From positions 28,325 through 92,324 of the forward strand of contig JAGXBC010000003.1 of assembly GCA_018971305.1 (NCBI GenBank): DNA of 64,000 bases. The letters run 5' to 3'. The translations under genes were made by a program, and so were the position numbers. The DNA is from Patescibacteria group bacterium (GTDB taxonomy: Bacteria; Patescibacteriota; Minisyncoccia; UBA6257; 2-01-FULL-56-20). Shown in pieces: positions 7,814-46,809 of the stretch (within the stretch, counting starts at the first letter, position 1; each line of letters starts with the position of its first letter). The notes under the pieces are model-generated. The model was not told where the DNA came from. It searched no databases and saw only the letters and a program-made list of their open reading frames with translations.

Positions 7814-8217
7814 AGAAAGTTTTAGTATTCGGTGTTTTTGATGGTGTGCACGAAGGCCATCGGTCCTTTTTTAAGGAAGCGAAAACGCACGGTGACTACT
7901 TGATTGCCGCCATTGCTCAAGACCATATTGTTGAGCACTTAAAAGGCCGCTTACCGCAGACGAATTTGGCAGACCGTATTGCCGACCTGCAGGCAGAAGA
8001 CGGTGTTGACCAGGTTGTTTTGGGTGATTCCGAAATAGGCACTTACGAAGTTGTCAAAAAATACCGTCCGGAAGTTATCGCTCTCGGCTATGACCAAGAA
8101 GCCTTAAAAGATGATTTGGAAAGCCATAAAAAAGAATTTGACTGGAAGCCGAAGATTGTTGTGCTTAACTCCTACGAGCCGAATAAATATAAGAGCAGTC
8201 TAATTAATAGAAAGTAG
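7810..8217 (+). CDS. cytidylyltransferase-like nucleotidyltransferase (FAD synthetase / FMN adenylyltransferase-like)
   Basis: HxGH motif GVFDGVHEGH of the nucleotidyltransferase superfamily. 135 aa. Start overlaps the lysS stop (ATGA). Confidence 0.6.
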   Translation: MKKVLVFGVFDGVHEGHRSFFKEAKTHGDYLIAAIAQDHIVEHLKGRLPQTNLADRIADLQAEDGVDQVVLGDSEIGTYEVVKKYRPEVIALGYDQEALKDDLESHKKEFDWKPKIVVLNSYEPNKYKSSLINRK

Positions 8218-8296
8218 AAAACAGCAAGTAGAAAGTAGAATTTCTGGAGCCAACACTATTCTATTTTCTAATTTCTAGATTCTATTTTCTATTTTT
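8209..8296. repeat. palindromic cluster of TAGAAAGTAGAA / TTCTATTTTCTA units
   Basis: Forward units at 8209-8240 and reverse-complement units at 8258-8296 around a central spacer. Spans the stop codon of the upstream gene and lies between convergent genes. Confidence 0.6.
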
Positions 8297-30557: not shown

Positions 30558-32177
30558 ATGGAGGCCTCTAACGAAAAAAGAAACGCGAGGCGTTTTTCCG
30601 ATGTTCACCATTCAAGGAAGAAAGGATGGAGAGCTTGGTTTAATTTTCTGGGGAAACACGGGAAAACCGTTAATTTAAAGCCGCCATTTTATAAGAGATA
30701 CCCAGTAGTCGCCGGTTTTATTGTCGTCTTGGCCGTTGTTTCCGTTTTCGGAGCCAAGAGATTGTTTACGCGGGCGGAAGTTGCGGATTTTTACCCCTCA
30801 AACTGTCTCGGTTCTTGGCAGGGTCCGCAAAACGCCCAGGGCAAGCCGGAGATGCTCGCACCCATATCCACCTCCACGATTTTCGGAGAAGATAATTCCG
30901 CTGTTTTCAATTCCGGCACGGGGCAGATTTTCTGCGGAGGTTTCTTGCCCGGCAATTACGCTTCTTCGAGCGATATAAAAAGCGTTGGTCTTACTTTCGT
31001 CTGGCAAGTGGGGGAGCCGTCGGCAACCTCAACTTTTCCCCAGGGAGCCCTAATCACAACCTCAACAATTTCTACGTCTACTTCTGCGAGCGCGGATACG
31101 GCGACTGGTACGGATCAAGTAACTCAGGTTGTAGGGCAGGGTGCTGCATTAGAGCAGGGGAGCAGCACCGATGTACAACAGACCGCCCCGGCCGATTCCA
31201 GCGCGACGACTCCTGCGGATTCCGGCGGGGCAATTCCTCCGCAACAGATAAATCCGGAGCCAGTTCCGCCGACAAATTCCAGCGATACCACTTCCACGAC
31301 ATCGTTTTTATACAATTTACGAGGTTTATTATTTAATGTAGCTTTCGCTCAATCTGATTCAACAAGTTCACCGCAGGTAACGAGCGATACTATTCCGGTT
31401 GCGAACGATACAACAACAACCGTTAGTAAGCCGCAAAATATTTCAACGCCAGCTTCGCCGTCTCCATCCAACGAAACGACGACGGTATCAGAACAGGTAA
31501 CGCAGAAAGCGGGACAACAAACACAGAGCACAAAACAAGGAACACAGAACATAGAGCAAGCGACAACGACCGGTGCGGAACCATCAACGACCATAATTAT
31601 CGGCCCGACCATCACGGCGTCCCTCACCCCGCTTACTACTTCCACCGACGCTTCGGGAACATATGTGATTATGAATGCAACTGATACTCTTGCTACGGGA
31701 ACCGAGCCCGTTGTTCCGCCGCCCGCTCCAGACGAAAACTTCCTGAAGATAAGTTATAGCACCGATGGCCAGACCTGGACGGAGATAGCAAAAGTGAACG
31801 ATAATAACTGGCAGAATTTTACCGTTACCCTGCCTATTAATAATTGGGAAATCTTGAAGAAATTACAGATACAAGTGGAAGGAATTCCCACAACCCTTAA
31901 CCCCACCCCCAAGGTTTATCTGGATGGAATGTTTGCCGAAGTCCATTACGAGCTTTCTCCGGAATTCGCCGCCGCTCTGAGCGGCGATCAATCCCTGGAT
32001 GGCCAAAATTCTTCTTCAAGCGTTACCACAACTACTATTGGAGGGGTTACGGTAATCGTTCTCCCGCCATCGCAAAAGCCGGTATCCGACAATCCGAAGC
32101 AGCAGGATACATTCCGTGCCGACCAAACACCGCAATTCAATTTTGATCTGAATTCTATATCGGTTCCGGGGCAGTAA
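30558..32177 (+). CDS. membrane-anchored Ser/Thr-rich low-complexity surface protein
   Basis: TM at residues about 50-70, long S/T/P/Q-rich middle, globular C-terminal domain. Confidence 0.5.
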   Translation: MEASNEKRNARRFSDVHHSRKKGWRAWFNFLGKHGKTVNLKPPFYKRYPVVAGFIVVLAVVSVFGAKRLFTRAEVADFYPSNCLGSWQGPQNAQGKPEMLAPISTSTIFGEDNSAVFNSGTGQIFCGGFLPGNYASSSDIKSVGLTFVWQVGEPSATSTFPQGALITTSTISTSTSASADTATGTDQVTQVVGQGAALEQGSSTDVQQTAPADSSATTPADSGGAIPPQQINPEPVPPTNSSDTTSTTSFLYNLRGLLFNVAFAQSDSTSSPQVTSDTIPVANDTTTTVSKPQNISTPASPSPSNETTTVSEQVTQKAGQQTQSTKQGTQNIEQATTTGAEPSTTIIIGPTITASLTPLTTSTDASGTYVIMNATDTLATGTEPVVPPPAPDENFLKISYSTDGQTWTEIAKVNDNNWQNFTVTLPINNWEILKKLQIQVEGIPTTLNPTPKVYLDGMFAEVHYELSPEFAAALSGDQSLDGQNSSSSVTTTTIGGVTVIVLPPSQKPVSDNPKQQDTFRADQTPQFNFDLNSISVPGQ

Positions 32178-32247: not shown

Positions 32248-32844
32248 TTGACGCAGGGAAACGTTTTTAAGCACAAACTCGGCCGAAATGTTAAAATTCA
32301 AGAAATGATTTCCAGAGAAAATAATTTCGCGTTTATAGACAGTCAAAATCTTAATCTCGGCATTCGCGTTCAAGGTTGGGAGCTTGATTTCGCGCGGTTT
32401 CGTATATATCTCAAAGACAAATACAGTATTACCAAAGCGTTCCTTTGTATCGGTTATGTGAAGGGCAACGAAGGTCTATACAAATATCTTCAAGAGAGCG
32501 GGTACATTTGTGTTTTTAAGCCGACTCTTGAGTTACCCGACGGGGACGTAAAGGGCAACGTTGATGCTGAGCTTGTCTTATATACCATGATGCATATCAA
32601 TGATTTCGACCGCGCGCTCATTATTAGCGGCGATGGAGATTTTCACTGCCTTATTGAGCACCTCTTGGAACAGAAAAAACTGCTTGTGTTTATGGTGCCC
32701 AACAGAAAAAAATATTCAGGCCTATTGAAGCGGAAAGATTTTTTGCCACATACTCGATTCGTTGCCGATATCAGAAATATGGTCCAAAAAAAGAAAGACC
32801 CCGACGAGGACAAAACCTTGTCAGGGCACCCTTTCCGTTCGTGA
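32248..32844 (+). CDS. NYN-domain (LabA-like) putative ribonuclease
   Basis: AFIDSQNL...VDAELVLYTM...LIISGDGDF is the NYN/PIN-like signature. Confidence 0.7.
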   Translation: MTQGNVFKHKLGRNVKIQEMISRENNFAFIDSQNLNLGIRVQGWELDFARFRIYLKDKYSITKAFLCIGYVKGNEGLYKYLQESGYICVFKPTLELPDGDVKGNVDAELVLYTMMHINDFDRALIISGDGDFHCLIEHLLEQKKLLVFMVPNRKKYSGLLKRKDFLPHTRFVADIRNMVQKKKDPDEDKTLSGHPFRS

Positions 32845-35800: not shown

Positions 35801-36385
35801 ACGACATCCACCTGTTCCGGCACGACAATCAACACTACCGACACCGTGGGAATTTATTACTTCGCCGATTCCACGGGCAACAATTCTTCCACTTATCCAT
35901 CCGACCATTGGGAAGCGTTCGCTCTCGCAAGTGATGCCGCGGGCGCCACCTCCAGCGCGACCTCCACCAACGTGGACATCAATGTTCTTTCCGCGGTGAA
36001 CGTCACAACTTCCTCCATTGACTATTCAACGGTTACGGCTTCTTCCACGAGTGCCGAGCAGATTGCCACAACGACGAATGCCGGCAACTCCACAACCTCC
36101 ATTCAGCTTTACGCTTTGAGTACGCTCTCGTGTTCCAGCGGCGGCTGCAACGGCACTTCCATCACGACGAGCTCTCAGCACTACGCGAGCTCAACGGGAG
36201 CATCGTTTGATAGTACCGTCGCCCTGACCGATTCCCCGGTTACCCTAACCGGCATTAAACTGAAAACTCCCACAAGCACCGTAAATGTTTCCCAAGGCAC
36301 TTTCTGGTTCCTGAACGTTCCGGCCGGAACCGCAACAGGAACTTTCAGCGGCACGAACGTTTTCTCGCCGGCGTGGAGCCCATAA
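32873..36385 (+). CDS. giant (1,170 aa) membrane-anchored surface protein with central glycine-rich (ALK/Gly_rich-like) domain and C-terminal 4-Cys domain
   Basis: ATG at 32873 (MSRAKLC) followed by a TM segment. Residues about 400-620 are poly-G blocks alternating with beta strands (IELIAGGGGGA...GGAAGGGGAY...IIVITYTP). The last 320 aa are paralogous to gene 36920-37885. Confidence 0.7.
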   Translation: MSRAKLCIAKIRGWARRAPGSRRRGEILACVTLAIVVSVLAILVTVKFSPVVRAQISQSELPTPQNLVVAKIIDPVGRLTNLQPLIIIANNQLHVSVPEPKFSFRPGKYKLELWIWQGGNIYYTENDFSWGVLAVNFNKSIYNLGDKSKIGLAVLDDQGHTICNADMDMNIVSPSGKTSYFSTQDKTISHNLSCGPGSVTNDPDYSATILAGEVGTYNVSVTARTANGTRQISDKFEVQNPPMFDVERNAPTRIFPPATYKVSIAVKANDNFHGNITETVPGTFDVTASSAETTLVKSSGSPTLDTKIISWPVNLKKGDSVSLTYSFKAPDVSPELYKLGPLQIGNWSEARQWQVAADSVANTVIFITSLASTTWQVPNDWNNTSNTIELIAGGGGGATNSGTGGSSNRGGAAGGGGAYAMITNFSTSTGNLVKIGVGTGGAAQATGTLTYFNWSGGGTTSTCSGTTMQLCAMGGGRAVTGNPGSFGTGGASSTSVGTVKYGGGPGGADALSKTAGAGGGGAGGPSGDGQGGTNTTIGTGGAGDAGVAAGGTGGLTGTNPGGTGGPGSEWTSNPGGVSGGSGGGGGGSTGNSSTGGTGGNYGGGGGGGRSSGGAGGVGQQGIIVITYTPSTITMADGTQPANVTVGPGANATTSAVFTLVTNNNTVTSSITSIDVNIATTTGVFQVQIADNAGTTIYGSSTNPGSTSLTINTTNMVVSTTTLTFRTMIKPLDATSMPTTPVSGAGAVGGTYVVTSTLPGTFTDNKSWDHAGANTTSSIITIDNLSPADVTNASGTVASSSVAFTWNNPGDTDFATTTIVRATSSISIIPTEGTYYTVGQTLNATTTVVCVVASSSASNCTDSGLTAGTTYYYMIFTADNYLNYSSGTVPTNNPFTPSNNQPPTVSAVSLNHGNAITLTPNATTSFDLNWSVSDPDGCANINTNTATSTAFRLGVKSTCAVPGPTTSSLSCYLYLTRTTSTCSGTTINTTDTVGIYYFADSTGNNSSTYPSDHWEAFALASDAAGATSSATSTNVDINVLSAVNVTTSSIDYSTVTASSTSAEQIATTTNAGNSTTSIQLYALSTLSCSSGGCNGTSITTSSQHYASSTGASFDSTVALTDSPVTLTGIKLKTPTSTVNVSQGTFWFLNVPAGTATGTFSGTNVFSPAWSP

Positions 36386-36387
36386 AT

Positions 36388-36440
36388 GTAGAATTTTCAA
36401 TTATCAATTTTCAATTTACAATGAATTTTTAATTTTTAAC
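36388..36440. repeat. left inverted repeat of CAATTTTCAA-type units flanking the four-helix-bundle gene
   Basis: ttttcaattatcaattttcaatttacaatg. The reverse-complement units reappear at 36823-36855. Confidence 0.5.
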
Positions 36441-36445
36441 TATTA

Positions 36446-36796
36446 ATGATGAGCAGTAAATATAATTTAGAAGAACGAACCGCAAAATTCGGAGAAAACA
36501 CTATAGAGTTTTGTAAAAGTGTTAAGCAAGACACGATTAGCAGACCAATCATCAGCCAACTTATTAGATCGGCGACCAGCATCGGTGCAAATTATTGCGA
36601 AGCCAATAACGCCAGCTCAAAAAAGGACTTCAAAAATAAAATATTTATTTGTAAAAAAGAATGTCAAGAAACGAAGCATTGGTTGCGAATGATTACGCAA
36701 TGCGCGCCAGAACAAAAAGAAAAAATTGCAGCGCTATGGCAAGAATGCCAAGAATTAACAATGATTTTTCAGAAGATTATTTCCTCGTCTAGCTAA
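36446..36796 (+). CDS. four-helix-bundle protein (23S rRNA intervening-sequence protein family)
   Basis: ...SIGANYCEANNASSKKDFKNKIFICKKECQETKHWL is the family signature. Confidence 0.8.
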   Translation: MMSSKYNLEERTAKFGENTIEFCKSVKQDTISRPIISQLIRSATSIGANYCEANNASSKKDFKNKIFICKKECQETKHWLRMITQCAPEQKEKIAALWQECQELTMIFQKIISSSS

Positions 36797-36822
36797 ATGT
36801 GCGGCATTACTCCTAAATAACG

Positions 36823-36873
36823 GGTTGAAAATTGGAAATTGATCATTGAAAATTGCCCCGCCTGCGGCGGGGG
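36823..36873. repeat. right inverted repeat (TTGAAAATTG units) plus GC hairpin CCCCGCC-TGC-GGCGGGG
   Basis: Reverse complement of the left repeat units. Hairpin at 36856-36873 matches the one at 11842. Confidence 0.5.
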
Positions 36874-36919
36874 AGTTATCCACATCCTTTATAAATCATA
36901 ATCTGTTATAATAAATCTA

Positions 36920-37885
36920 ATGATGAGTCATAAGAACTCCGGTTTAGCCTATATAGGCGTAGTATTGCTCTCGGCCGTTTTGATTTTGGCCGTTTTTGCC
37001 GGTTTCAGTACTGCTTTCGGGGCAGCTTCAAGCACGGTTTCCACAACGGTAACCGTAGGAAACGCGACGCCGACGGTTACCTCGGTTTCTTTAAATAATG
37101 GTAGTGCGATAGTCCTGACTCCGAATGCCACCACGTCTTTTAATATCAATTATACGGTCTCCGACAATAACGGTTGCGCTGATATTAATACGAATAATAT
37201 GACCTCTACGGCTTTTAGGAATGGGGACTCTTCTAATTGTGCGAAACCCAGCCCGACGACCAGCAATACGAGCTGTTATCTCTTTATATCTTCAACGCGC
37301 ACCACAAGCACTTGCCAGGCCAGCGTAACTATCAACGTAACCGACACTGTGCAGATCTATTACTTCGCGGATTCCACCGGAAACAACTCGTCTACTTTCT
37401 CAACCGACCACTGGGAGGCCTATGCGACGGCTCACGATGCTTCTGATGCTAGCAGTAGTGCGACATCCACCTCCGTCGACATAAATGTTTTAACGGCAGT
37501 TAACGTGACGACTTCTTCAATCAACTACAGTTCCGCCGGCAACCTCTCGGCTTCTTCCACGAGCCCTCAACAGAACGCAACGACAACCAATGCCGGTAAT
37601 TCGACAACTTCTCTTCAGCTCTATGCCCTGCAGACGCTCGCAACGGGAACGATATCAATCGCCACCGGTTCTCAACATTATGCTACGACTACAGGACAAT
37701 CATTTGACGCCGGCAGCGTAGCCTTAACCGACACCCCGGTAACCGCTACGGGTTTCAAGCTCTTAACTCCAACAGCGACGAATAGCGTCGGCACATCTAC
37801 CTACTGGTTCCTGAACGTTCCGGCCGGAACGAATCAAGATACTTATACAGGCACTAACGTTTTCTCTCCGAAGTGGTCACAGTAG
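36920..37885 (+). CDS. membrane-anchored protein paralogous to the C-terminal domain of the giant protein
   Basis: Alignable end to end with residues about 890-1170 of 32873-36385: four conserved Cys and an identical 27-nt DNA stretch (ctggttcctgaacgttccggccggaac). Confidence 0.65.
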   Translation: MMSHKNSGLAYIGVVLLSAVLILAVFAGFSTAFGAASSTVSTTVTVGNATPTVTSVSLNNGSAIVLTPNATTSFNINYTVSDNNGCADINTNNMTSTAFRNGDSSNCAKPSPTTSNTSCYLFISSTRTTSTCQASVTINVTDTVQIYYFADSTGNNSSTFSTDHWEAYATAHDASDASSSATSTSVDINVLTAVNVTTSSINYSSAGNLSASSTSPQQNATTTNAGNSTTSLQLYALQTLATGTISIATGSQHYATTTGQSFDAGSVALTDTPVTATGFKLLTPTATNSVGTSTYWFLNVPAGTNQDTYTGTNVFSPKWSQ

Positions 37886-37998
37886 TTATGTCTCATAGAA
37901 TTCTTTTTGGAATATAATAAGTTTCAATTTGAAAATGGATCATGATAAAATTGAATAATCAATAGGACTTCGGTACTACCAATGACTTACTCTCTGTT

Positions 37999-40537
37999 TT
38001 GGTTAGAATGAAAAACTTGTTGCTGATAGTGTTTGTTTTGGTGATAGCAATAATAGTATTAGTTCCCCAGTCCAAAGCTGCAGCAGTCCTAATTCCTAAT
38101 CAACCCAATATCGGTAGTCTGTTGGGATCTGGAACCGTTGTCAGTCAGCCCATCGGCGCAGGTTTTTTCGGATACAATCAGCGGTCTTGATTTTAATATA
38201 GTAAATCTAAATGGTCTTATAGCCTCTTGGTTCAAGGTTGATCTTTGTACATATCCATCCAGTTCACCTAGTAATGATTGTGGGCAAGAAAATCAGATTG
38301 GCATTACCGAAGGCCTTACGCCAGTAGGTGTTGGCATACGCCATGTTAGTTTTAATCAACCAATTACTATAAATCCTAATGATTTTGTAGTTTTGCGCTA
38401 TTGCGCTGCCTTTAATAATACTACTTATGATTGTGTGGGATCTGGCAACGGCACCTTTACTTTTTCGGGGATCACCAGCACCAATCCTGGTTGGTATCCA
38501 TGGCCGCAGTATTTATATGTGGTTTGGCAGCATGCGTCTCTATCTAATTTACAGCAATTTGAATCTGATGGAGTGACTGTTATTCCATCTGGGGGCGCTA
38601 TTCCAGAAAATACTGTGGTTCTGGCTGCAAATGTTGTGGGTGCGGCAGACAATACGGTACAACTACAGGTTGAAGTGGAACCAAATAATATTCCATTTTC
38701 TGGGATTCCAACCTTAAGCAGCTCCTTTGTTCTTTCTGGGGATATTACAACGATAACCGTGCCTAATATTCTAGATGGTCAATATCATTGGCAAGCTCGC
38801 GCAGTGGATTCTGAAGGAAATACGTCGCCCTGGAGTTCGGGCAGTAATTTTGTTATTGATACCATGCCTCCGACAATATCTTATAATCGGCCATCTCCAT
38901 ATTATATAATTAACACATCCGCCATATTTTCTTTTTATGCAAATGATAATGGAGGAACCGGAATTAATGATCTTTCAGCATTGCTTGATGGGAAATTATT
39001 CGACTTTGGTCCTACCGTCGGATCTGTTTTAAACCTTGATCTTTCTGTTGGTACGCACACTATTATTATCAAAGCGAAGGATTATGCGGGCAATATTACT
39101 ACGTCCGATACGCTTACATATACTGTGCCAGCAGCAATGGTTGCCAATGGATCTCAGCTAACCGATCAATCTTATATAGGTGGTACCATAGGAACTTCAA
39201 ATGGAATTGTTGCGCAACCCATCGGTGCAGGATTCTCAGATACCGTCAGCGGACTTGATTTCTATGTACCAAGCCTGAACAACCTTATAGCCTCTTGGTT
39301 CAAGGTTGATCTTTGTACATATCCATCCAGTTCACCTAGTAATGATTGTGGGCAAGAAAATCAGATCGGCATTACCGAAGGTCGTGTGTCCGTTGGCACT
39401 GGTATTCGACACGTCAGTTTTACTCAGCCGCTTAATATTTCACCTGACAACTTTGTTATTTTGAGGTACTGCGCTGCCTTCAATGATATAAATTACAGTT
39501 GCATACCCAGTGGCAATGGTAGTTTTACTTTCGGTGGTGTTACCAGCACCAATCCTGGTTGGTATCCATGGTCGCAGTATTTATATATCAAATGGCAGCA
39601 CACTACGATAAATGGTTTGGCACAATATGAAGCAGATGGCATAACACCGCTTGGAACTAGCGCAACAAACACAATAGTGTTGTCCGGAAATGTTGTCGGT
39701 TCTATTGATCCAGTTCAACTCCAAGTTGAAATAGAGCCAAGTGGTGCCGCTTTTATTGATCAACTCACGGCAAGTAGTTCGTTTGTTTCATCTGGGAGTA
39801 CTGCCACCATTACGATATCTGATGTGGCTGATGGGGATTATCATTGGCAAGCTCGTGCGATGGATTCGGGGGGAATTGCATCTCCTTGGTTGCCATTTAG
39901 TGCCGTGCCAACAAACACAGACTTTGTTATAGATACGACTCCACCTGTAATTGCACACACCGCTATCGAACCCCAGTACATTCTTAATGGCACTCCACTA
40001 CAGTTTCAATTTTCTGCAACGGATAATGGTGGTGTTGGACTTTCAAATCTTGTAGCCACACTAGACGGTGTTGAATTTTCGTCGGGAGATTTTATAAATT
40101 TTACTCAAGTCGGTGTACACACAATTATAATTACTGCAAAAGATGCTGTCGGAAATATTTCTACATCAACTAATACTTATGATGTGGCTTATAATTTCGG
40201 AGGATTTCTCCCTCCAATACAAACTGATGGTAGTGGCGTGTATAAGTTGAAGAGGTCTTTAGCTGTTAAATTCCAACTCACAGATGCCAATGGTCAATAT
40301 GTAGACAATGCGGTTGCACGTTTATTAGTGACAAAAGTAGAAGACGGTATTTTAGGAACTGTTCCGATAGAATTATCAACATCTACTACGGACATCGGCG
40401 GATTATTCAAATACGACCCAATTAGTAATCAGTATGTTTACAGGTTAGACACCGGATCTTTAACCACTGGGACATGGCAATTGACAGCAGTACTAGACGA
40501 TGGCACGAGTTACTCTATATTAATATCATTAAGGTAA
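37999..40537 (+). CDS. secreted tandem-repeat surface protein, interrupted by a +1 frameshift at a T6 tract (38163-38168)
   Basis: The N-terminal signal-peptide ORF (37999-38190) ends ...SQPIGAGFFGYNQRS*. Removing one T gives ...QPIGAGFSDTISGLDF, which continues into ORF 38138-40537 and matches the second internal repeat (IVAQPIGAGFSDTVSGLDF). Confidence 0.6.
38216..38313 (+). repeat. 98-nt core of a 1,068-bp intragenic tandem duplication (copy 1; copy 2 at 39284-39381, one mismatch)
   Basis: Near-identical DNA in both copies. The flanking protein repeats (about 356 aa each) are otherwise about 60% identical. Confidence 0.75.
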
Positions 40538-40558
40538 TATTTTTTAAATAATTTCTAT

Positions 40559-40584
40559 AAAAAGGGGACAGCCCCCTTTTTTTG
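40559..40584. terminator. bidirectional terminator AAAAAGGGG-ACAG-CCCC-TTTTTTT
   Basis: Seen in sequence. Followed by two TTGTATAAT extended -10 boxes at 40601-40609 and 40623-40631. Confidence 0.7.
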
Positions 40585-40645
40585 ATTTCCCCAGGAGATT
40601 TTGTATAATAATTACATCAATATTGTATAATATTAAGGATACTAA

Positions 40646-41563
40646 ATGGCCAAACATTCAATTATCTGGCCGGTTATTGCCGCTGTTTTTATTCTCGCCG
40701 CGGCGATTTTTTCGTTGCCGCAAGGAGCCATCGCGGCTTTCGGAGTTTCGCCTCCGTTTGTGAATTCCGACCACCTTGTTGCCGGAGCGCAATATATCCA
40801 AACGGTTTATTTGGTACAGGATCAGCCGGATCAGGATTTAAGAATTAAAGCAACGCTCAACGTACCTGATAAGATCAAACCCTGGATAAAAATAGACAAG
40901 GGCTTGGACTTTATTATTCCTAAAGGCGTTCGCCAATTTCCGATTCAGATAGAGGTTGATGTTCCAAAAAGCGAGATTCGCGGTCAGTATAGCGGCAACC
41001 TGGTCATAGTGAGCGAGCCTGCGCAATCGGGACAGGTAACCATCGCTTTGGGAGCCAATATCGCCATCAACCTTACGATCGGCACCGATATTTTTGAACA
41101 ATATTCCGTGCAGGCTATCAAGCCTTTGGACGTGGAGGAAGGTTGGAATCCCCGAGTTGATGTTAAATTCAAAAATGACGGTAATATTCCGGAAAGTTTT
41201 GATGGCGCAACCTTTGAATTGATAGATAAATTCGGCGGTACGCGCTTGGCTTATACTCAAAAAACCACGGGTTTTCCCGAGACGCCGCCGTTCAGCATTA
41301 AGGAATATGTTGTTGAGTTTCCCATGGAATTTCATCTTGGTCTTGGTCAATATTGGGCTGACGTAAATTTTTATAAGGGAGGTAAAATTATCGGCCACGA
41401 GAAAACGGTGTTCAATGTTCTACCTGCTGGCTCAATTTCCGGTCCAACGGCGCAAGTATTGAATTTCTTGAAAAACGCTTGGGTTTATTATTCCGCTATC
41501 GGTATTGTCCTTGCTCTAATGATATTTTTCTTCTTTTTCAAACGGAAGCGTCATCATAGATAA
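40646..41563 (+). CDS. secreted protein with C-terminal TM anchor and basic tail (hypothetical)
   Basis: N-terminal signal peptide. C-terminal ...IGIVLALMIFFFFFKRKRHHR. Confidence 0.55.
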   Translation: MAKHSIIWPVIAAVFILAAAIFSLPQGAIAAFGVSPPFVNSDHLVAGAQYIQTVYLVQDQPDQDLRIKATLNVPDKIKPWIKIDKGLDFIIPKGVRQFPIQIEVDVPKSEIRGQYSGNLVIVSEPAQSGQVTIALGANIAINLTIGTDIFEQYSVQAIKPLDVEEGWNPRVDVKFKNDGNIPESFDGATFELIDKFGGTRLAYTQKTTGFPETPPFSIKEYVVEFPMEFHLGLGQYWADVNFYKGGKIIGHEKTVFNVLPAGSISGPTAQVLNFLKNAWVYYSAIGIVLALMIFFFFFKRKRHHR

Positions 41564-41580
41564 AAAAGTTATCCAACGGG

Positions 41581-42537
41581 ATGAAATGGAAAAAAATATT
41601 TTCGGTCTCCATCTTGGGGTTAATCGCCGTCATTGTTTGGTATGGTAAATTTTCAATTGCTAGGTCTGCGAGCGTAAGCGTCCCCACGGAAGTCGTAACA
41701 ACTCCCGCGGTAGTCAGGTTAACCCAGGATTATTTCAGGTGGTATGAAAATATTGATGCTCTGACCCCCTCAAGCACATTGGCTGCGGAGAATACGTCTA
41801 CCAGCGTCCCCGATTCAGGAACCGTCTTGCGGTTAAGGATGAATATTATTGACGGCAACGTGGATTTGCCGACGGGTACGGAATTCAAACTCCAATACGC
41901 CAATTCCACCTCTGGCCCCTGGACAGACTTGTCTACCTCAACTTCCTGGATATTTTTTAACAATCCCTCAGTTGCCGACGGGCAGATTATCCTAACGACA
42001 GTTTTGAGCAATTCCAACACGGGTGAAAGTTATAACGAATCAAATCCGTCGGCTTCCACTCCGAATACTGTCGTGCAGGGCCAAAGAGGCGAGTGGGACT
42101 GGGTGATTGAAAATAATTCCGCGGATACGGCAAGCAACTGGTTTTTCCGGATGATATATTCTTCAAGCACGGTGCTTGACTCTTACAACAGGTATCCCAA
42201 ATTAACTGCCGTGCCCGTGGTCACTCCACCGCCGTCTTCGGGCGGAGGGGGCGGTTCAACCGGTGTTGGTGGGGGACAGACGACTCCTCCACCGCCTTAT
42301 GTTCCGCCGGGCAATCAAACGACAACGCCACCGCTGCCGATACCGCCGCCGCTTTTGCCTCCGCCCATACAGGCCGTGGATTTTAATGGTGATAACCGAG
42401 TGAATATCATTGATCTTTCTATTCTTCTTTATTATTACAACAAAACCGGGCCGCAAATAACGCGCTACGATTTAAACAGGGATTTGGCGGTAGATTTCCC
42501 GGACGTATCAATAATGATGTTTTATTGGACTAGCTAG
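41581..42537 (+). CDS. secreted protein with Gly/Pro-rich linker and C-terminal dockerin-like domain
   Basis: Two Ca-binding-loop repeats, DFNGDNRVNIIDLSILL and DLNRDLAVDFPDVSIMM, in the D-x-N-x-D-x-x-V-N/D-x-x-D pattern. Confidence 0.55.
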   Translation: MKWKKIFSVSILGLIAVIVWYGKFSIARSASVSVPTEVVTTPAVVRLTQDYFRWYENIDALTPSSTLAAENTSTSVPDSGTVLRLRMNIIDGNVDLPTGTEFKLQYANSTSGPWTDLSTSTSWIFFNNPSVADGQIILTTVLSNSNTGESYNESNPSASTPNTVVQGQRGEWDWVIENNSADTASNWFFRMIYSSSTVLDSYNRYPKLTAVPVVTPPPSSGGGGGSTGVGGGQTTPPPPYVPPGNQTTTPPLPIPPPLLPPPIQAVDFNGDNRVNIIDLSILLYYYNKTGPQITRYDLNRDLAVDFPDVSIMMFYWTS

Positions 42538-42573
42538 TAATAGAAAATAGAATCTAGAAAATAGAAAGTAGAA
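42538..42573. repeat. TAGAAAATAGAA repeat cluster (forward orientation)
   Basis: taatagaaaatagaatctagaaaatagaaagtagaagg immediately upstream of the four-helix-bundle gene. Confidence 0.6.
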
Positions 42574-42576
42574 GGA

Positions 42577-42924
42577 ATGAGCAAAACGAAATCATTTAAA
42601 GATCTAATTGTTTGGCAAAAAGCTCGCGATTTGGCGGTGATTGTCTACGAACTCACCGAAAAATTTCCCAGATCAGAACTGTACGGACTAACAAGCCAAA
42701 TGAGGAGAGCAGCTATTTCCATATCTTCCAACATCGCAGAAAGTTATCACCGTTTTCATAGTAAGGAGAAAAATCAGTTTTTAGCCATAGCTTTTGGTTC
42801 CGGCTCGGAACTAGAAAGCCAAATGGAAATCTCCAAGGTTTTATTCCCACACTTAAATTATAAAGGAGCAGGGGAGCTTCTTGGCGATGTGATGAAAATT
42901 CTAAACAATTTTTTATCCAAATAA
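42577..42924 (+). CDS. four-helix-bundle protein (23S rRNA intervening-sequence protein family)
   Basis: DLIVWQKARDLAVIVYELTEKFP..E.YGLTSQMRRAAISISSNIAE...FL.IAFGS..ELESQ is the family signature. Confidence 0.8.
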   Translation: MSKTKSFKDLIVWQKARDLAVIVYELTEKFPRSELYGLTSQMRRAAISISSNIAESYHRFHSKEKNQFLAIAFGSGSELESQMEISKVLFPHLNYKGAGELLGDVMKILNNFLSK

Positions 42925-42934
42925 ATATAAAACA

Positions 42935-43845
<911 letters not shown>

Positions 43846-43870
<25 letters not shown>

Positions 43871-43927
43871 AAAATAGAATCAAAAATTAATTCTACTTTC
43901 TATTTTCTAAATTCTACTTTCTAAATT
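43846..43927. repeat. palindromic TAGAAAATAGAA / TTCTACTTTCTA cluster spanning the stop codon of gene 42935
   Basis: Forward units 43846-43880, reverse units 43890-43927. Same organisation as the cluster at 8209-8296. Confidence 0.6.
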
Positions 43928-43930
43928 ATT

Positions 43931-44557
43931 ATGTTCGAATTACCAACGCTTCCATATGCTTATGACTCCCTGGAGCCTTATATTGATGCGCGTACGATGG
44001 AAATACACCACACGAAGCATCACCAGGCCTACATAAATAAATTGAACGAAGCCTTAGAAAAACATCCAGAGCTGGATAAGAAATCTTTGGAAGAATTATT
44101 GGGAAATCTTAATTCTGTGCCCGATGACATAAGGACGGCCGTGAGAAATCATGGCGGTGGGCACATCAACCACTCGTTATTCTGGAAGATTATGGGGCCC
44201 GGTGCCGGCGGTGAACCAAATGGTGCAATGGCCAAGGCCGTAGCGGATTCGTTCGGGGACTTTGTTAAATTTAAAGAAGAATTCGGAAAAGCCGCGGCCG
44301 GTATTTTCGGCAGCGGCTGGGCGTGGCTGGTTTTAAACGCAGAACACGGAACAGATAACAAGGAACAATTAAAGATAATTACGACCCCCAATCAGGACAA
44401 TCCCATATCGCAAGGACTCAGACCCCTTCTTGGCTTAGACGTTTGGGAACACGCTTATTATCTGAAATATCAGAATAAACGGCCGGATTATATTTCTGCC
44501 TGGTGGAACGTGGTCAACTGGAGTGAAGTTGAAAAGAATCTTACAGCATCTTCGTAG
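43931..44557 (+). CDS. sodA: Fe/Mn superoxide dismutase
   Basis: [22 protein letters not shown] metal-ligand motifs. Confidence 0.9.
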
Positions 44558-44646
44558 GCGAGCGATTATGGTTATGGGTGGAATACTGGATAATTATCTG
44601 ACTTTAGGCAACATAAATAGGTGAGTAATGCTATAATAATTTAGAT

Positions 44647-46809
44647 ATGGAAAGACCTCATAAAATAGGTGGATTTTGCCTATCATCTATGATAGCGGGC
44701 GGGTTTTTTCTGTTTGCCGTATTTTTCGCGGTAATTTCCCCGATTAAAGCTGAGGCCGCCGCCTCTCTTTATGTTTCTCCTCCGTCCGGCACATTTACGG
44801 TCGGCAGCACGTTTACGGTTTCTATTTACGTAAACAGCGGTGGCCAGTCTATTAATGCCGTAGAGGCGGATTTGAAATTTCCTGCGGATAGGTTGCAGGT
44901 TGTTTCGCCCACAACCGGGAAATCTCTTATTCAGGTTTGGGTAAGCCAGCCGACTTATTCAAATTTGGACGGTACGATGAAATTCCAGGGGACAATACCT
45001 AGTCCCGGAATAAATACGGATTCCGGTCTTATTTCCACTGTAACTTTCCGCGTGAAAAGCGTGGGTACAGCGTCGCTGCAAATTTTGGACAGCTCTCAAG
45101 TGCTTTTAAACGATGGCCTGGGCACTAATATATTGGGTCAGACTACGAGCGGTATTTATTATCTTGTTTTGCCGGCTCCTGCCGGACCGATAGTTACGTC
45201 GCGTACCAATCCGGATCAGTCCAAATGGTATAGCACTCATCAGGTGGTTTTTGAATGGAGTGCCCCGTCGGATATACAAGGTTATAGCTATATATTGGAT
45301 CAAGACCCGTCTGGAGAGCCGGATGATATTTCCGAAGGGACCAATACCAGGGTGGTTTATGACAAGCTTGCCGATGGCACTTATTATTTCCATATTAAGT
45401 CTTTACGGCAGGGCGCCTGGGGCGGAATTACCGATTATGTGGTGAATATAGATAACGATCCGCCGGCAAAATTTACAATAGATTTTTCTCCCGGAGACAC
45501 GACGTCTAATCACCGCCCGATAATTGACTTTACTACAACCGATAAAACTTCCGGACTGGATCATTATGAATTAAAAATTATTCCGCTGGATATGCCGCTC
45601 GCAGTGACAACCCAGAACGATACTCCATTTTTCATAGAAACCCAGCCGCCGTATTCCCAGCAATTGGCAGACGGAAGGTACGATGTTTATGTCCGGGCTT
45701 ACGATAAAGCAGGAAACTATTATCAAGCAGAGAGCAGGCTTACTATAACCAAGCCGATTTTTGAATTTTTGAGCCCGAGTGGTTTGAGTGTCAACGGTTT
45801 TACCTTGGGCTGGGCCTACACGGTTGTCTTGGGATTGCTATTTCTCGCGCTATTCGGATATTTCGGCTATAAGGCATGGACTTGGCATCGGTTAATTGAA
45901 GAATCTTTGGAGCACGGACCGCATAAGCATCCTGTGGTAGCCGAAAAACTTGAAGAGTTAAAGAAAAAACAAAAAGAATACGGATCGTCCGGAGGCACTA
46001 CAACAGCCCTTCTTACTCAGAATGATATCGACGGAAAAGAGCCGCCAGGCTCTATTGGCGGCACGGGTTTGATGATCTTGTTTGCCCTGGTAATATCTTT
46101 AGCGCTATTCGGACACGCGGTTAAGGCCCAGCAGAATGCGACTGGCAATGTTTCGGTTGAACCGCCCATAGTCACACTATTCCCCAAATCCATTTCCAAT
46201 GACGAGATCTTTTATATCGGCGGCAGAGCCGGGGCTCCTAACGCCAAGGTTTATATCTATCTGCAGAATGTGGACACAGGCAGCGCTTTGAATGAGATAG
46301 CGGTAACAGATGTTAGTGGCGCTTGGTTCTACTCTTTCCCGCAATTTCTGACTGCCGGGCGTTACATTGTCTGGACCCAGCTTAAGGTGAGCGATGCCTT
46401 GAGTTCACCGAGCCCGCAAATGAACTTGGAAGTCGCGCCGACCGCGATCCAATTCGGCGGCAACCGTTTCAGCTATCAGGATCTGTATTTTGTGTTGCTT
46501 CTTATATTCCTCGCGGCTTTCTGCGCATTGCTCGCATTCATTATTTACCACAGCTACCACTTCAGAATTAAAAATAGGCGATTGTCTTTGGCTATAGCGG
46601 CAGCGGAGGAATCTATCCGCCGCGGCTTCTCTGTTTTGCGCCGGGATATTGAAGAAGAGCTTAGCGTTATCCGCAAGGTCAAGCTTAATAAGGAGCTCTC
46701 CACCGAAGAAAAAATACGCGAAGAAAAATTAACTAAGGATTTTGAAGACGTAAATCGCTATGTTGGTAAGGAAATCTGGGAAGTGGATAAGGAGGAAAAG
46801 GATTTGTGA
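44647..46809 (+). CDS. large membrane protein with N-terminal cohesin-like domain
   Basis: SLYVSPPSGTFTVGSTFTVSIYVNSGGQSINAVEADLKFPADRLQV is cohesin-like. Several TM helices and a charged cytoplasmic tail follow. Confidence 0.5.
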   Translation: MERPHKIGGFCLSSMIAGGFFLFAVFFAVISPIKAEAAASLYVSPPSGTFTVGSTFTVSIYVNSGGQSINAVEADLKFPADRLQVVSPTTGKSLIQVWVSQPTYSNLDGTMKFQGTIPSPGINTDSGLISTVTFRVKSVGTASLQILDSSQVLLNDGLGTNILGQTTSGIYYLVLPAPAGPIVTSRTNPDQSKWYSTHQVVFEWSAPSDIQGYSYILDQDPSGEPDDISEGTNTRVVYDKLADGTYYFHIKSLRQGAWGGITDYVVNIDNDPPAKFTIDFSPGDTTSNHRPIIDFTTTDKTSGLDHYELKIIPLDMPLAVTTQNDTPFFIETQPPYSQQLADGRYDVYVRAYDKAGNYYQAESRLTITKPIFEFLSPSGLSVNGFTLGWAYTVVLGLLFLALFGYFGYKAWTWHRLIEESLEHGPHKHPVVAEKLEELKKKQKEYGSSGGTTTALLTQNDIDGKEPPGSIGGTGLMILFALVISLALFGHAVKAQQNATGNVSVEPPIVTLFPKSISNDEIFYIGGRAGAPNAKVYIYLQNVDTGSALNEIAVTDVSGAWFYSFPQFLTAGRYIVWTQLKVSDALSSPSPQMNLEVAPTAIQFGGNRFSYQDLYFVLLLIFLAAFCALLAFIIYHSYHFRIKNRRLSLAIAAAEESIRRGFSVLRRDIEEELSVIRKVKLNKELSTEEKIREEKLTKDFEDVNRYVGKEIWEVDKEEKDL

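What the first reader, a model, noticed from the sequence alone, without database searches (positions are those of the whole stretch)
36388..36873. Both four-helix-bundle (23S rRNA IVS-protein family) genes sit outside rRNA and are bracketed by inverted repeats
Gene 36446-36796 is flanked by CAATTTTCAA-type units on the left (36388-36440) and their reverse complement TTGAAAATTG on the right (36823-36855). The second family member (42577-42924) is flanked by TAGAAAATAGAA units (42538-42573) and the inverted TTCTACTTTCTA units (42996-43028). This family is classically encoded inside intervening sequences of 23S rRNA. Here there is no rRNA, and each copy looks like a miniature inverted-repeat cassette. 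Both lie inside a surface-protein island, one of them exactly between two paralogous adhesin modules. The family may therefore ride on or define small mobile elements that promote local rearrangement.
Basis: partly seen in the sequence, partly recalled or inferred. Interest (0 to 1): 0.55.

Follow-up and report, generated by a model that had tools for sequence, protein, structure and literature searches.

The report
Heptamer-repeat stem-loop cassettes carrying four-helix-bundle genes
Two small four-helix-bundle genes in a candidate-phyla (Patescibacteria) chromosome are each enclosed by inverted arrays of 7-base repeats, the same design as the intervening sequences of 23S rRNA. This design turns out to be typical of the gene family across many phyla, and related genomes show the same site empty, filled with this gene, or filled with a different small gene.

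Summary
Gene 36446-36796 is bracketed by a 30-nt inverted repeat (90% complementary) and gene 42577-42924 by a 32-nt one (88%). There is no rRNA in the window.

- Every arm is a tandem array of 4-5 heptamers.
- Two gene-less hairpins of the same TAGAAAR type lie elsewhere in the window.
- The right arm of the second cassette lies inside the next gene and encodes the core of its signal peptide.

Across 80 loci from Patescibacteria, Omnitrophota, Atribacterota, Planctomycetota and other phyla:
- Period-7 arrays precede 68% of these genes, against 14% of control genes.
- The left and right units are reverse complements of each other.
- The unit sequence tracks the protein's relatedness.
- None of the 80 loci is in rRNA.

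Cyanobacterial copies, and the published Coxiella IVS, show the same heptamers.

Both cassettes are syntenic in some relatives, and the proteins are under strong purifying selection. Yet the same site is found empty, holding a different four-helix-bundle gene with different arms, or holding a GxxExxY nuclease-fold gene.

My best reading is an IVS-type stem-loop cassette that is transcribed with its neighbours and turns over on evolutionary time. The way it moves is unknown. The claim that it promotes rearrangement is not supported.

The parts
36392..36422 (+). Left arm of cassette 1: tandem heptamers AATTTTC x4.4.
   Evidence: TRF; IR I1; pairs with 36825-36854 in the MFE and centroid folds.
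36424..36447 (+). Second short heptamer array, AATTTTT x3.4, running into the start codon. It places TAA at 7-nt spacing, so all three frames are closed just before the ATG.
   Evidence: TRF; sequence.
36446..36796 (+). Four-helix-bundle gene 1 (116 aa; the public annotation starts one codon later, giving 115 aa). TIGR02436/PF05635; closest solved relative is 2RLD.
   Evidence: dN/dS is 0.03 against the 91%-identical ortholog in L164.
36825..36855 (+). Right arm of cassette 1: tandem heptamers TTGAAAA x4.4, the reverse complement of the left arm.
36856..36872 (+). G+C-rich hairpin CCCCGCC-TGC-GGCGGGG directly after the right arm. Relatives L164, L166 and L168 carry it at the same position. It has no T-run, so a terminator role is only inferred.
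   Evidence: Sequence; IR I7.
42539..42573 (+). Left arm of cassette 2: heptamers TAGAAAA/TAGAATC/TAGAAAG x5. It starts right after the stop codon of gene 41581-42537 and puts TAG in all three frames.
42577..42924 (+). Four-helix-bundle gene 2 (115 aa). TIGR02436/PF05635, with a weak sub-threshold Avd-like match; closest solved relative is 2GSC.
42996..43027 (+). Right arm of cassette 2: TTCTACT x4.6 (100% matches). It lies inside ORF 42935-43870 and encodes the hydrophobic core of that protein's signal peptide.
   Evidence: The arrangement is the same in L172, L183, L184 and L185.
8208..8295 (.). Gene-less hairpin of two convergent TAGAAAR arrays (8208-8240 and 8259-8295). It lies between the convergent cytidylyltransferase-like gene and dnaE, and both genes end inside the arrays.
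   Evidence: (z=-4.7 and -3.3). It is absent at the same junction in most of 80 relatives.
43848..43923 (.). Gene-less hairpin of two convergent TAGAAAR arrays between ORF 42935-43870 and the superoxide dismutase gene.
   Evidence: (z=-4.5 and -7.2).

Best explanation
Each locus is an IVS-type stem-loop gene cassette. A roughly 350-nt four-helix-bundle (TIGR02436) ORF is enclosed by two inverted arrays of 4-5 heptamers, and arms plus gene are inherited as one unit. The cassette sits about 40 nt behind a co-oriented gene, so I infer that it is transcribed by read-through. In the transcript the arms pair into a roughly 30-bp duplex that closes the ORF into a loop of about 400 nt. This is the geometry that RNase III cuts in 23S rRNA intervening sequences. 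I therefore infer that RNase III processes it, which would uncouple the cassette from the flanking genes. The 7-nt period has two consequences that the sequence shows directly. A stop triplet inside the unit (TAG, TAA or TGA) closes all three reading frames within three units, so incoming ribosomes stop at the border. Pairing also tolerates gain or loss of whole units. The protein itself is under strong purifying selection, so it has a function, which remains unknown. Over long times cassettes are gained, lost and replaced at the same intergenic spots by a mechanism that must act in trans, because the cassette encodes no recombinase. Shown: the architecture, its generality, arm covariation, purifying selection and site polymorphism. 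Inferred: co-transcription, RNase III cleavage and translational insulation.
For: The long-range stem appears in both MFE and centroid folds for both cassettes. It matches the Coxiella IVS characterised by experiment: 428 nt, a 28-bp terminal stem cut by RNase III, the S23p ORF in the loop, and 2-3 tandem GACAGAT heptamers just before the ATG, with copy number varying between strains (PMC4990558). Generality: IR in 56% against 2% of controls. Period 7 is the best tandem repeat in 103 of 125 flanks that have one. Arrays lie upstream of 59/87 against 21/153 controls, and the median is 4.3-4.4 copies. Cyanobacterial plasmid copies inside cas operons show heptamer arrays too. Covariation: the left unit matches the reverse complement of the right unit at a mean distance of 1.4, against 2.83 for permuted partners (0 of 2000 permutations reach the observed value) and 3.77 for the direct orientation. 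Unit distance tracks protein identity (rho=-0.37; 0 of 300 permutations). Stop-codon polarity: 125 TAG against 26 CTA in left arms. All three frames are closed in 24 of 51 left arms against 5.4 expected, and the right arms mirror this on the other strand. The upstream neighbour is co-oriented in 76 of 77 cases, with a median gap of 40 nt. Protein constraint: dN/dS is 0.03, and the arms keep their unit type although synonymous sites are saturated. Turnover: three or four states at an orthologous site, incongruent with flanking-gene similarity. Site 1 is also polymorphic. Gene-less hairpins come and go at the dnaE junction.
Against: There is no expression or RNA-end data. Mismatches in the arms show no excess of G-U-compatible types on the coding strand (38 against 31 A-C types), so nothing favours RNA pairing over DNA pairing. 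In cassette 2 the right arm is inside the next gene's signal peptide, so cleavage there would sever that mRNA from its start codon. The main left array of cassette 1 has no stop on the coding strand (the stops sit in the second array), so the stop-codon rule is a tendency and not universal. One cyanobacterial copy has direct rather than inverted arrays (L179). About 14% of control genes in the same loci also have heptamer arrays, so the arrays are not exclusive to this family. No RNase III gene lies in the window, and the rest of the genome was not available.
Confidence: 0.5

Rival explanations
1. The arms act at the DNA level, and the RNA stem is incidental. They would be recombination or transposition sites, comparable to MITE/TIR ends, REP hairpins mobilised by a Y1 (RAYT/IS200-type) transposase, or integron attC hairpins. 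A trans-acting enzyme encoded elsewhere would recognise them.
For: An orthologous site is found empty, with 4HB, or with GxxExxY, with three different arm types. Gene-less hairpins are present or absent at the same dnaE junction. SOD is present only in the window and L184, and heptamer hairpins border it. There is no G-U bias. Contigs often break at the arrays. A Y1_Tnp gene sits at site 1 in L184, and an IS200/IS605 tnpA lies near a Nostoc copy. GxxExxY has a PD-(D/E)XK nuclease fold.
Against: The window holds no recombinase. I found no target-site duplication at filled against empty sites. Copies within the window share a unit type but are not near-identical copies of one element. Both cassettes are stable at the same site over divergences that saturate synonymous positions. 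The two transposase sightings are anecdotal.
Confidence: 0.25
2. The heptamer arrays are binding sites for the four-helix-bundle protein itself. The family forms homopentamers, and the arrays have 4-5 units, so one subunit could read one unit on RNA or DNA. The protein would then autoregulate its cassette and act on the gene-less arrays elsewhere in the genome. It would be the missing trans factor for bacterial heptamer repeats.
For: The unit sequence tracks the protein clade. Arrays have a median of 4.3-4.4 units. The closest solved relatives were each deposited with five chains, and a pentamer is reported for the Xanthomonas homolog (PMC4990558). Arrays abut the start codon, within 0-15 nt in many loci. 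Gene-less arrays in the window use the same unit as cassette 2. Published work on TAACTGA and GGGAATC heptamer arrays postulates an unidentified binding factor and finds mostly four units (PMC4679880, PMC4692102). The relative Avd binds its RT, from prior knowledge of DGRs.
Against: The evidence is purely correlative, and host phylogeny could produce the same unit-protein correlation. GxxExxY cassettes have similar repeat arms without a 4HB gene. Coxiella S23p is reported as not expressed. No nucleic-acid-binding test exists for this family.
Confidence: 0.15
3. There is no specific link. Heptamer arrays are slippage-generated simple repeats or generic intergenic hairpin terminators of these genomes, and small genes merely happen to lie between them.
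For: Heptamer SSRs are over-represented in many bacteria and have been attributed to polymerase slippage (PMC4692102). Arrays also separate ordinary cheD/cheY genes in L080. Gene-less hairpins sit at gene ends like terminators.
Against: Enrichment at family genes is 13-fold over neighbouring genes in the same loci. The arrangement is inverted and the two units covary. TAG polarity is fixed relative to the gene. The arms stay conserved where synonymous sites are saturated. The same design occurs in rRNA IVSs.
Confidence: 0.05
4. The genes are Avd accessory proteins of diversity-generating retroelements that diversify the neighbouring surface proteins.
For: There is a weak Avd-like match for gene 2 (PF22296 E=5e-4; NF033474 E=3e-4; both far below cut-off). 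The setting is a surface-protein island.
Against: No reverse transcriptase lies among the ORFs scanned in the window. There is no template/variable repeat pair; the only long direct repeats are 70-79% identical coding paralogs.
Confidence: 0.02

Closest known systems
23S rRNA intervening sequences that carry an S23p/PF05635 ORF (Leptospira, Coxiella burnetii)
   Same: [quoted passage not shown] Tandem heptamers lie directly upstream of the start codon (GACAGAT in Coxiella, PMC4990558).
   Different: These cassettes lie between protein-coding genes rather than in helix 9, 25 or 45 of 23S rRNA. Both arms are full heptamer arrays. One arm doubles as coding sequence for a neighbour's signal peptide. 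RNase III cleavage is not shown here.
Intergenic heptamer repeat arrays: cyanobacterial STRR, Xanthomonas/Nostoc GGGAATC/GGGGAYT (PMC4692102) and TAACTGA repeats (PMC4679880)
   Same: They are tandem 7-nt units, mostly about 4 copies, and intergenic. They are often paired in convergent orientation and often sit just upstream of start codons. Stops in all three frames were noted for TAACTGA. Their function is unknown.
   Different: Those studies did not connect the arrays with four-helix-bundle genes; neither 'S23' nor 'four helix' occurs in their text. Here the arrays enclose a specific gene family and their unit covaries with it.
MITEs, and REP/BIME hairpins mobilised by RAYT transposases
   Same: They are short inverted-repeat hairpins scattered in intergenic regions, with presence/absence between relatives, gene-less copies, and no recombinase of their own.
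   Different: The arms here are internally periodic and differ in sequence between lineages. No target-site duplication and no cognate transposase were identified. Many copies carry a conserved, selected ORF.
Diversity-generating retroelement accessory protein Avd
   Same: It belongs to the same four-helix-bundle superfamily, which forms pentamers.
   Different: There is no RT and no TR/VR here, and the match is far below the Avd model cut-offs.

Membership tests
TIGR02436 / PF05635 four-helix-bundle ('23S rRNA IVS protein') family | Match to the family HMMs above the curated cut-off. | tested here: met
   PF05635 scores 59.6 and 107 bits (cut-off 33.8). TIGR02436 scores 78.7 and 99 bits (cut-off 24).
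TIGR02436 / PF05635 four-helix-bundle ('23S rRNA IVS protein') family | Homology to solved four-helix-bundle structures, and a pentameric assembly. | tested here: inconclusive
   Sequence homology to 2GSC (E=7e-18) and 2RLD (E=1e-11), each deposited with 5 chains. The oligomeric state of these two proteins was not modelled or measured.
23S rRNA intervening sequence (IVS) element | Inserted in a 23S (or 16S) rRNA helix. | tested here: not met
   There are no rRNA matches in the window, and 0 of 80 family loci have rRNA within 3 kb.
23S rRNA intervening sequence (IVS) element | Terminal inverted repeats that form a long stem enclosing the ORF. | tested here: met
   Arms are 30 and 32 nt. The stem is present in the MFE and centroid folds.
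23S rRNA intervening sequence (IVS) element | Excision by RNase III. | not testable with these tools
   This needs RNA-end mapping or an in-vitro assay.
Diversity-generating retroelement | Adjacent reverse transcriptase and a template/variable repeat pair. | tested here: not met
   No RT was found in Pfam scans of 60 ORFs across the window, covering all of 250 aa or more plus selected shorter ones. No TR/VR-like repeat was found.
Transposable element (IS or MITE) | Terminal inverted repeats plus a target-site duplication. | tested here: inconclusive
   Inverted repeats are present. I recognised no duplication when comparing filled and empty orthologous sites, but the arm boundaries are fuzzy.
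Transposable element (IS or MITE) | A cognate transposase in the element or genome. | tested here: not met
   There is none in the 64-kb window. The rest of the genome was not available. A Y1_Tnp gene was seen once in a relative (L184).
Integron gene cassette | An attC site plus an integron integrase and attI. | tested here: not met
   There is no integrase in the window, and the cassettes are dispersed rather than arrayed.
Bacterial heptamer SSR / STRR-type arrays | Tandem 7-nt units in intergenic DNA, several copies per array and several arrays per genome. | tested here: met
   TRF finds period 7 and 4.4-5.3 copies at eight arrays. The pattern is enriched 200-fold over shuffles.

The most novel reading that the evidence does not exclude
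Four-helix-bundle (S23p/Avd-like) pentamers are the cognate partners of bacterial heptamer-repeat arrays. Together they would form a widespread, previously unrecognised cassette system: arms plus a small cargo gene, with GxxExxY nuclease-fold genes as an alternative cargo. The cassettes would insert at gene junctions. They would insulate themselves by phased stop codons and a dsRNA stem, and they could donate a hydrophobic arm as a neighbour's signal peptide. This would explain rRNA intervening sequences, cyanobacterial STRR repeats, and the Xanthomonas and Beggiatoa heptamer arrays as aspects of one element class.
Probability: 0.2. Interest if true: 0.85.

Novelty: new variant of a known kind. 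Interest (0 to 1): 0.62.

Why it matters
The ORF inside 23S rRNA intervening sequences has had no known function since 1993. Intergenic heptamer arrays in cyanobacteria, Xanthomonas and Beggiatoaceae are likewise unexplained. This locus, with the 80-locus census, ties the two together: the gene family is usually wrapped in inverted heptamer arrays whose unit covaries with the protein, whether or not it sits in rRNA.

That gives three concrete experiments:
- RNase III mapping of the stems.
- Binding of the pentamer to its own heptamers.
- Population-level detection of insertion and excision.

It also provides natural empty, filled and swapped alleles to work with. The arm that doubles as a signal-peptide core is a neat case of repeat exaptation.

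There are practical consequences as well. These arrays break metagenome assemblies, and they mislead gene callers into fused or extended ORFs. Examples are the 433-444-aa 'PDDEXK_3' calls and the 355-aa against 318-aa calls.

Tried and rejected
- **DGR/Avd reading.** Rejected: no RT and no TR/VR.
- **Defence-system membership.** No PADLOC hit.
- **Strand-specific G-U bias as evidence for RNA pairing.** Not found, 38 against 31.
- **Sigma-70 promoter and intrinsic terminator scan of 36000-44800.** Not above shuffles (24 against 19.5, and 15 against 9.3), so uninformative.
- **Target-site duplications at filled against empty sites.** None recognised.
- **Other family members in the window.** None besides the two (phmmer on six-frame ORFs).
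- **The dnaE 3' junction in 80 relatives as a 4HB landing site.** No 4HB was found there, only gene-less hairpins in a few relatives and unrelated small genes in others.
- **Literature.** No paper in the searchable library links PF05635/TIGR02436 with heptamer arrays in general.
- **The control ORF with the best IR (L080 1391-1753).** It is an ordinary CheY receiver gene between gene-less arrays, not a new cargo.
- **Structure prediction.** Not run, because sequence homology to solved pentameric bundles was already clear.
Full report
**1. What is in the window**

The window is a core chromosomal stretch of a Patescibacteria (candidate phyla radiation) genome with 45.6% G+C. It carries secY, adk, map, dnaE, mreB, dnaB, dnaK/dnaJ and several aminoacyl-tRNA synthetase genes. 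Public records name both small proteins 'four helix bundle protein [Patescibacteria group bacterium]', on a 224-kb contig.

From about 30.5 to 47 kb lies a run of secreted-protein genes with Ig-like, dockerin and cohesin domains. The two small genes sit in this run. Gene 1 is 36446-36796 (116 aa) and gene 2 is 42577-42924 (115 aa). Both are clear members of PF05635/TIGR02436. By sequence they are related to the solved four-helix bundles 2RLD and 2GSC, each deposited with five chains. The window has six tRNAs and no rRNA. It has no other family member.

**2.

- Gene 1 is bracketed by arms 36392-36421 and 36825-36854, which are 30 nt and 90% complementary.
- Gene 2 is bracketed by arms 42542-42573 and 42996-43027, which are 32 nt and 88% complementary.
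- IR scores are 20-22.5, against a maximum of 11.5 for shuffled flanks.

In fact every arm is a tandem array of heptamers with 4.4-5.0 copies. A TAGAAAR-array pattern hits 20 times where 0.1 is expected. The hits fall in exactly three convergent pairs:

- cassette 2;
- a gene-less hairpin at 8208-8295, between the convergent cytidylyltransferase-like gene and dnaE;
- a gene-less hairpin at 43848-43923, in front of the superoxide dismutase gene.

Both gene-less hairpins fold far better than shuffles, with z from -3.3 to -7.2. The TTGAAAA-type unit of cassette 1 occurs only at cassette 1.

The right arm of cassette 2 is not intergenic. It lies inside ORF 42935-43870 and encodes LILLSTFYFLLS, the hydrophobic core of a signal peptide that ends in AQA.

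**3. The fold**

Transcripts of 36380-36885 and 42530-43040 were folded as RNA. In both the minimum-energy and the centroid structures, the two arms pair and close the whole ORF into a loop of about 400 nt.

This is the architecture of the 23S rRNA intervening sequence studied in Coxiella burnetii. That element is 428 nt, has a 28-bp terminal stem cut within the stem by RNase III, and carries the S23p ORF in the loop. It also has two or three tandem GACAGAT heptamers plus a degenerate one directly before the ATG, and their number differs between strains (PMC4990558).

**4. Is this a property of the family?**

One scan of a species-representative genome collection with gene 2 returned 80 loci. 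They come from many Patescibacteria classes and from Omnitrophota, Atribacterota, Planctomycetota, Elusimicrobiota, Aerophobetes and others. None has an rRNA gene within 3 kb, so a non-rRNA location is the norm.

| Measure | Family genes | Control ORFs in the same loci |
|---|---|---|
| Upstream/downstream inverted repeat with score >=12 | 56% of 88 | 2% of 153 |
| Period-7 array upstream | 59 of 87 | 21 of 153 (odds ratio 13, p=2e-17) |
| Period-7 arrays on both sides | 36 of 87 | 10 of 153 |

Among the 125 flanks with any tandem repeat, the best repeat has period 7 in 103. Arrays have a median of 4.3-4.4 units.

The unit differs between lineages; examples are TAGAAAA, TAGCGTA/TAGCGGA, TAGCTTC, TAGGTTC, TAGGGTT and ACAAGGG. 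Within a locus, however, the left unit matches the reverse complement of the right unit. The mean distance is 1.4, against 2.83 for permuted partners (0 of 2000 permutations reach the observed value) and 3.77 in direct orientation.

Unit similarity also follows protein similarity (rho=-0.37; 0 of 300 permutations). Protein pairs at 70% identity or more share the unit within one mismatch in 75% of cases.

Six cyanobacterial plasmid copies were also examined, some of them wedged between cas genes. Most are flanked by heptamer arrays, for example AGGTGAC/GTCACCT in Anabaena sp. 90. One Pseudanabaena copy has long direct arrays instead of inverted ones.

**5. Polarity and position**

Left arms carry 125 TAG but only 26 CTA. 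Because 7 is not a multiple of 3, three units close all three frames. This holds for 24 of 51 left arms on the coding strand, against 5.4 expected from shuffles. It also holds for 29 of 51 right arms on the opposite strand. Ribosomes approaching from either side would therefore terminate at the border.

In the window, four flanking genes end inside or directly at an array: 7810-8217, dnaE, 41581-42537 and 42935-43870. The rule is a tendency only. The main left array of cassette 1 has no coding-strand stop, and a second short AATTTTT array supplies TAA in three frames.

Family genes sit a median of 40 nt behind an upstream gene, which is co-oriented in 76 of 77 cases. The background for adjacent gene pairs is 93 of 110. 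This fits read-through transcription. A consensus promoter scan was uninformative.

**6. Fixed or mobile?**

Close homologs are syntenic.

- Gene 1 orthologs in L164 (91% identical) and in the Liptonbacteria loci L166-168 (84%) follow the same upstream gene end. They have the same AATTTTC-type arms and the same G+C hairpin.
- Gene 2 orthologs in L172-175 (83%) and L185 (75%) have TAGAAAA-type arms, and the right arm again lies in the next gene's signal peptide.

The proteins are strongly constrained. dN/dS is 0.03 against L164. Synonymous sites are saturated in the other comparisons, while the arms keep their unit type. So these are old residents, not recent insertions.

The same site is nevertheless polymorphic across a wider set of relatives that share the gene order 'giant protein, three genes of about 310 aa, site 2, a gene of about 295-311 aa, then (after sod where present) the cohesin gene'.

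| State of site 2 | Where |
|---|---|
| q2-type 4HB with TAGAAAA arms | window, L172-175, L185 |
| A different 4HB (53% identical to gene 2) with ACAAGGG/CTTGTTG arms | L183 |
| GxxExxY / PD-(D/E)XK gene (TIGR04256) with other repeat arms | L166-168, L182, L184 |
| Empty; the two flanking genes overlap or lie 16 nt apart | L186, L187 |

These states rest. Cargo type is not congruent with flanking-gene similarity. The window's dockerin-like gene is most similar to those of L183 (65%) and L182 (61%), which carry other cargo. It is only 39-50% identical to those of L172 and L185, which carry the same cargo.

In five filled loci that I read through this region (window, L172, L183, L184, L185), the right arm lies within the downstream gene's signal-peptide core. 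In L166 and L182 the gene callers fuse cargo and downstream gene through the arm. The two empty sites have ordinary signal peptides.

Site 1, after the giant protein, is likewise variable:

- gene 1-type 4HB (window, L164, L166-168);
- another 4HB with about 14 units (L183);
- an array followed by non-coding sequence (L182);
- a Y1 transposase gene (L184);
- empty (L172, L185, L186, L187).

At the dnaE/cytidylyltransferase junction, most of 80 relatives have a tiny spacer without repeats. A few have heptamer hairpins with other units.

**7. What is not supported**

- No transposase, integrase or reverse transcriptase lies in the window.
- No target-site duplication was recognised.
- The DGR/Avd reading fails.
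- The paralogy that flanks cassette 1 is 67% identity between the giant protein's C-terminal module and the next gene. The same paralogy exists in relatives with an empty site: 51% in L186 and 36% in L172. The cassette therefore did not cause it.
- Arm mismatches show no preference for G-U-compatible changes (38 against 31), so nothing here separates RNA-level from DNA-level pairing.

**8. Interpretation**

I favour an IVS-type stem-loop cassette that is co-transcribed with its neighbours. Its heptamer arms would form an RNase III-type duplex and stop incoming translation. Its cargo protein is functional, with an unknown role. The cassette is gained, lost and replaced over evolutionary time by an unidentified trans-acting route (confidence about 0.5).

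Two alternatives are not mutually exclusive with this view:

- The arms are DNA-level recombination sites, REP/MITE-like (0.25).
- The arrays are binding sites for the pentameric protein itself (0.15). This is suggested by the 4-5 units, the unit-protein covariation, and the shared unit between cassette 2 and the gene-less hairpins.

**9. Relation to the literature**

The following are published:

- IVS elements with S23p ORFs and their inverted repeats, and the idea that they might be mobile (PMC4990558, citing Ralph and McClelland 1993).
- Heptamer arrays in Xanthomonas and Nostoc, mostly four units and often in convergent pairs (PMC4692102).
- TAACTGA arrays upstream of start codons, with stops in all frames (PMC4679880).

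Neither of the two repeat papers mentions the four-helix-bundle family. No paper in the searchable library connects the family with heptamer arrays in general. That is a statement about the library only, since subscription literature was not searched.

I therefore rate the finding as a new variant of a known kind, of moderate to high interest.

Noticed in passing
window 36876-36884 and 36904-36912: A perfect DnaA-box-like nonamer TTATCCACA lies about 20 nt upstream of an extended -10 box (TGTTATAAT), which itself lies 8 nt before the ATG of gene 36920-37885. The same TTATCCACA (or TTATGCACA/TTGTGCACA) plus TATAAT pair is conserved before the orthologous gene in L164, L166/L168, L172 (the promoter-like part only) and L182-L187, whether or not a cassette is present. 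It is probably a conserved promoter or operator of this surface-protein gene.
   Followed up: partly
L166 4806-5306, L182 3964-4450, L184 4039-4520: GxxExxY (TIGR04256, PF13366 PD-(D/E)XK fold) genes occupy the site that holds gene 2 in the window. They have their own repeat arms. In L166 the order is left arm, gene, a second copy of the left arm, then the right arm, giving a 42-nt hairpin. Gene callers fuse the cargo with the downstream gene into 433-444-aa ORFs, because the right arm has no stop on the coding strand.
   Followed up: partly
window 43931-44557; L184 5340-6345: Among the related loci examined, the superoxide dismutase gene is present in this island only in the window and L184. 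In L184 heptamer hairpins of GTTAACGA-type units bracket it on both sides. In the window a TAGAAAR hairpin lies upstream only. Heptamer hairpins may mark junctions of inserted genes in general.
   Followed up: partly
L164 4845-5003: Upstream of the gene 1 ortholog, the left arm is duplicated. A fragment resembling the first ~15 codons of the four-helix-bundle gene sits between the two copies, which suggests recombination or slippage between arrays.
   Followed up: no
L179, L180, L181 (cyanobacterial plasmids): Four-helix-bundle genes are wedged inside CRISPR-Cas operons (cas6-4HB-cas4 and cas10-4HB-cmr3), with heptamer arrays filling the spacers. In Pseudanabaena about 16 AAAAGCT units precede the gene and a long AAAAGCC array follows it, in direct rather than inverted orientation.
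   Followed up: partly
L184 1-367; L178 2976-3246: IS200/IS605-type Y1 transposase genes lie next to cassette sites in two unrelated loci. In L184 the gene lies at the position where the window has cassette 1. This is anecdotal, but such enzymes act on DNA hairpins.
   Followed up: no
L080 700-1800: In an Omnitrophota locus, ordinary cheD and cheY genes are separated by TAGCGTA/CTAAACG heptamer arrays. Gene-less arrays therefore punctuate operons outside Patescibacteria too.
   Followed up: partly
window 38165-38571 and 39233-39639: There is an internal duplication of about 400 nt (74-79% identical, 1068 nt apart) within the 799-aa Ig-like domain gene 38138-40537.
   Followed up: no
window 31520-31555: A weak heptamer array (AACACAG x5.1, 68% matches) lies inside ORF 30558-32177, which has no Pfam match. 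I did not check whether it relates to the cassette arms.
   Followed up: no
L002, L003, and the contig-length columns: Contigs that carry gene 2 end about 100 nt after it, at the right arm. A large share of homologs sit on contigs under 2 kb. The arrays probably break short-read assemblies.
   Followed up: no
window 32248-32844; L001 1860-2399; L164 306-2341: The stretch upstream of the giant surface protein is variable. The window and L001 have a NYN-domain gene there. L164 adds DUF6922, AbiEii and GIY-YIG genes.
   Followed up: no
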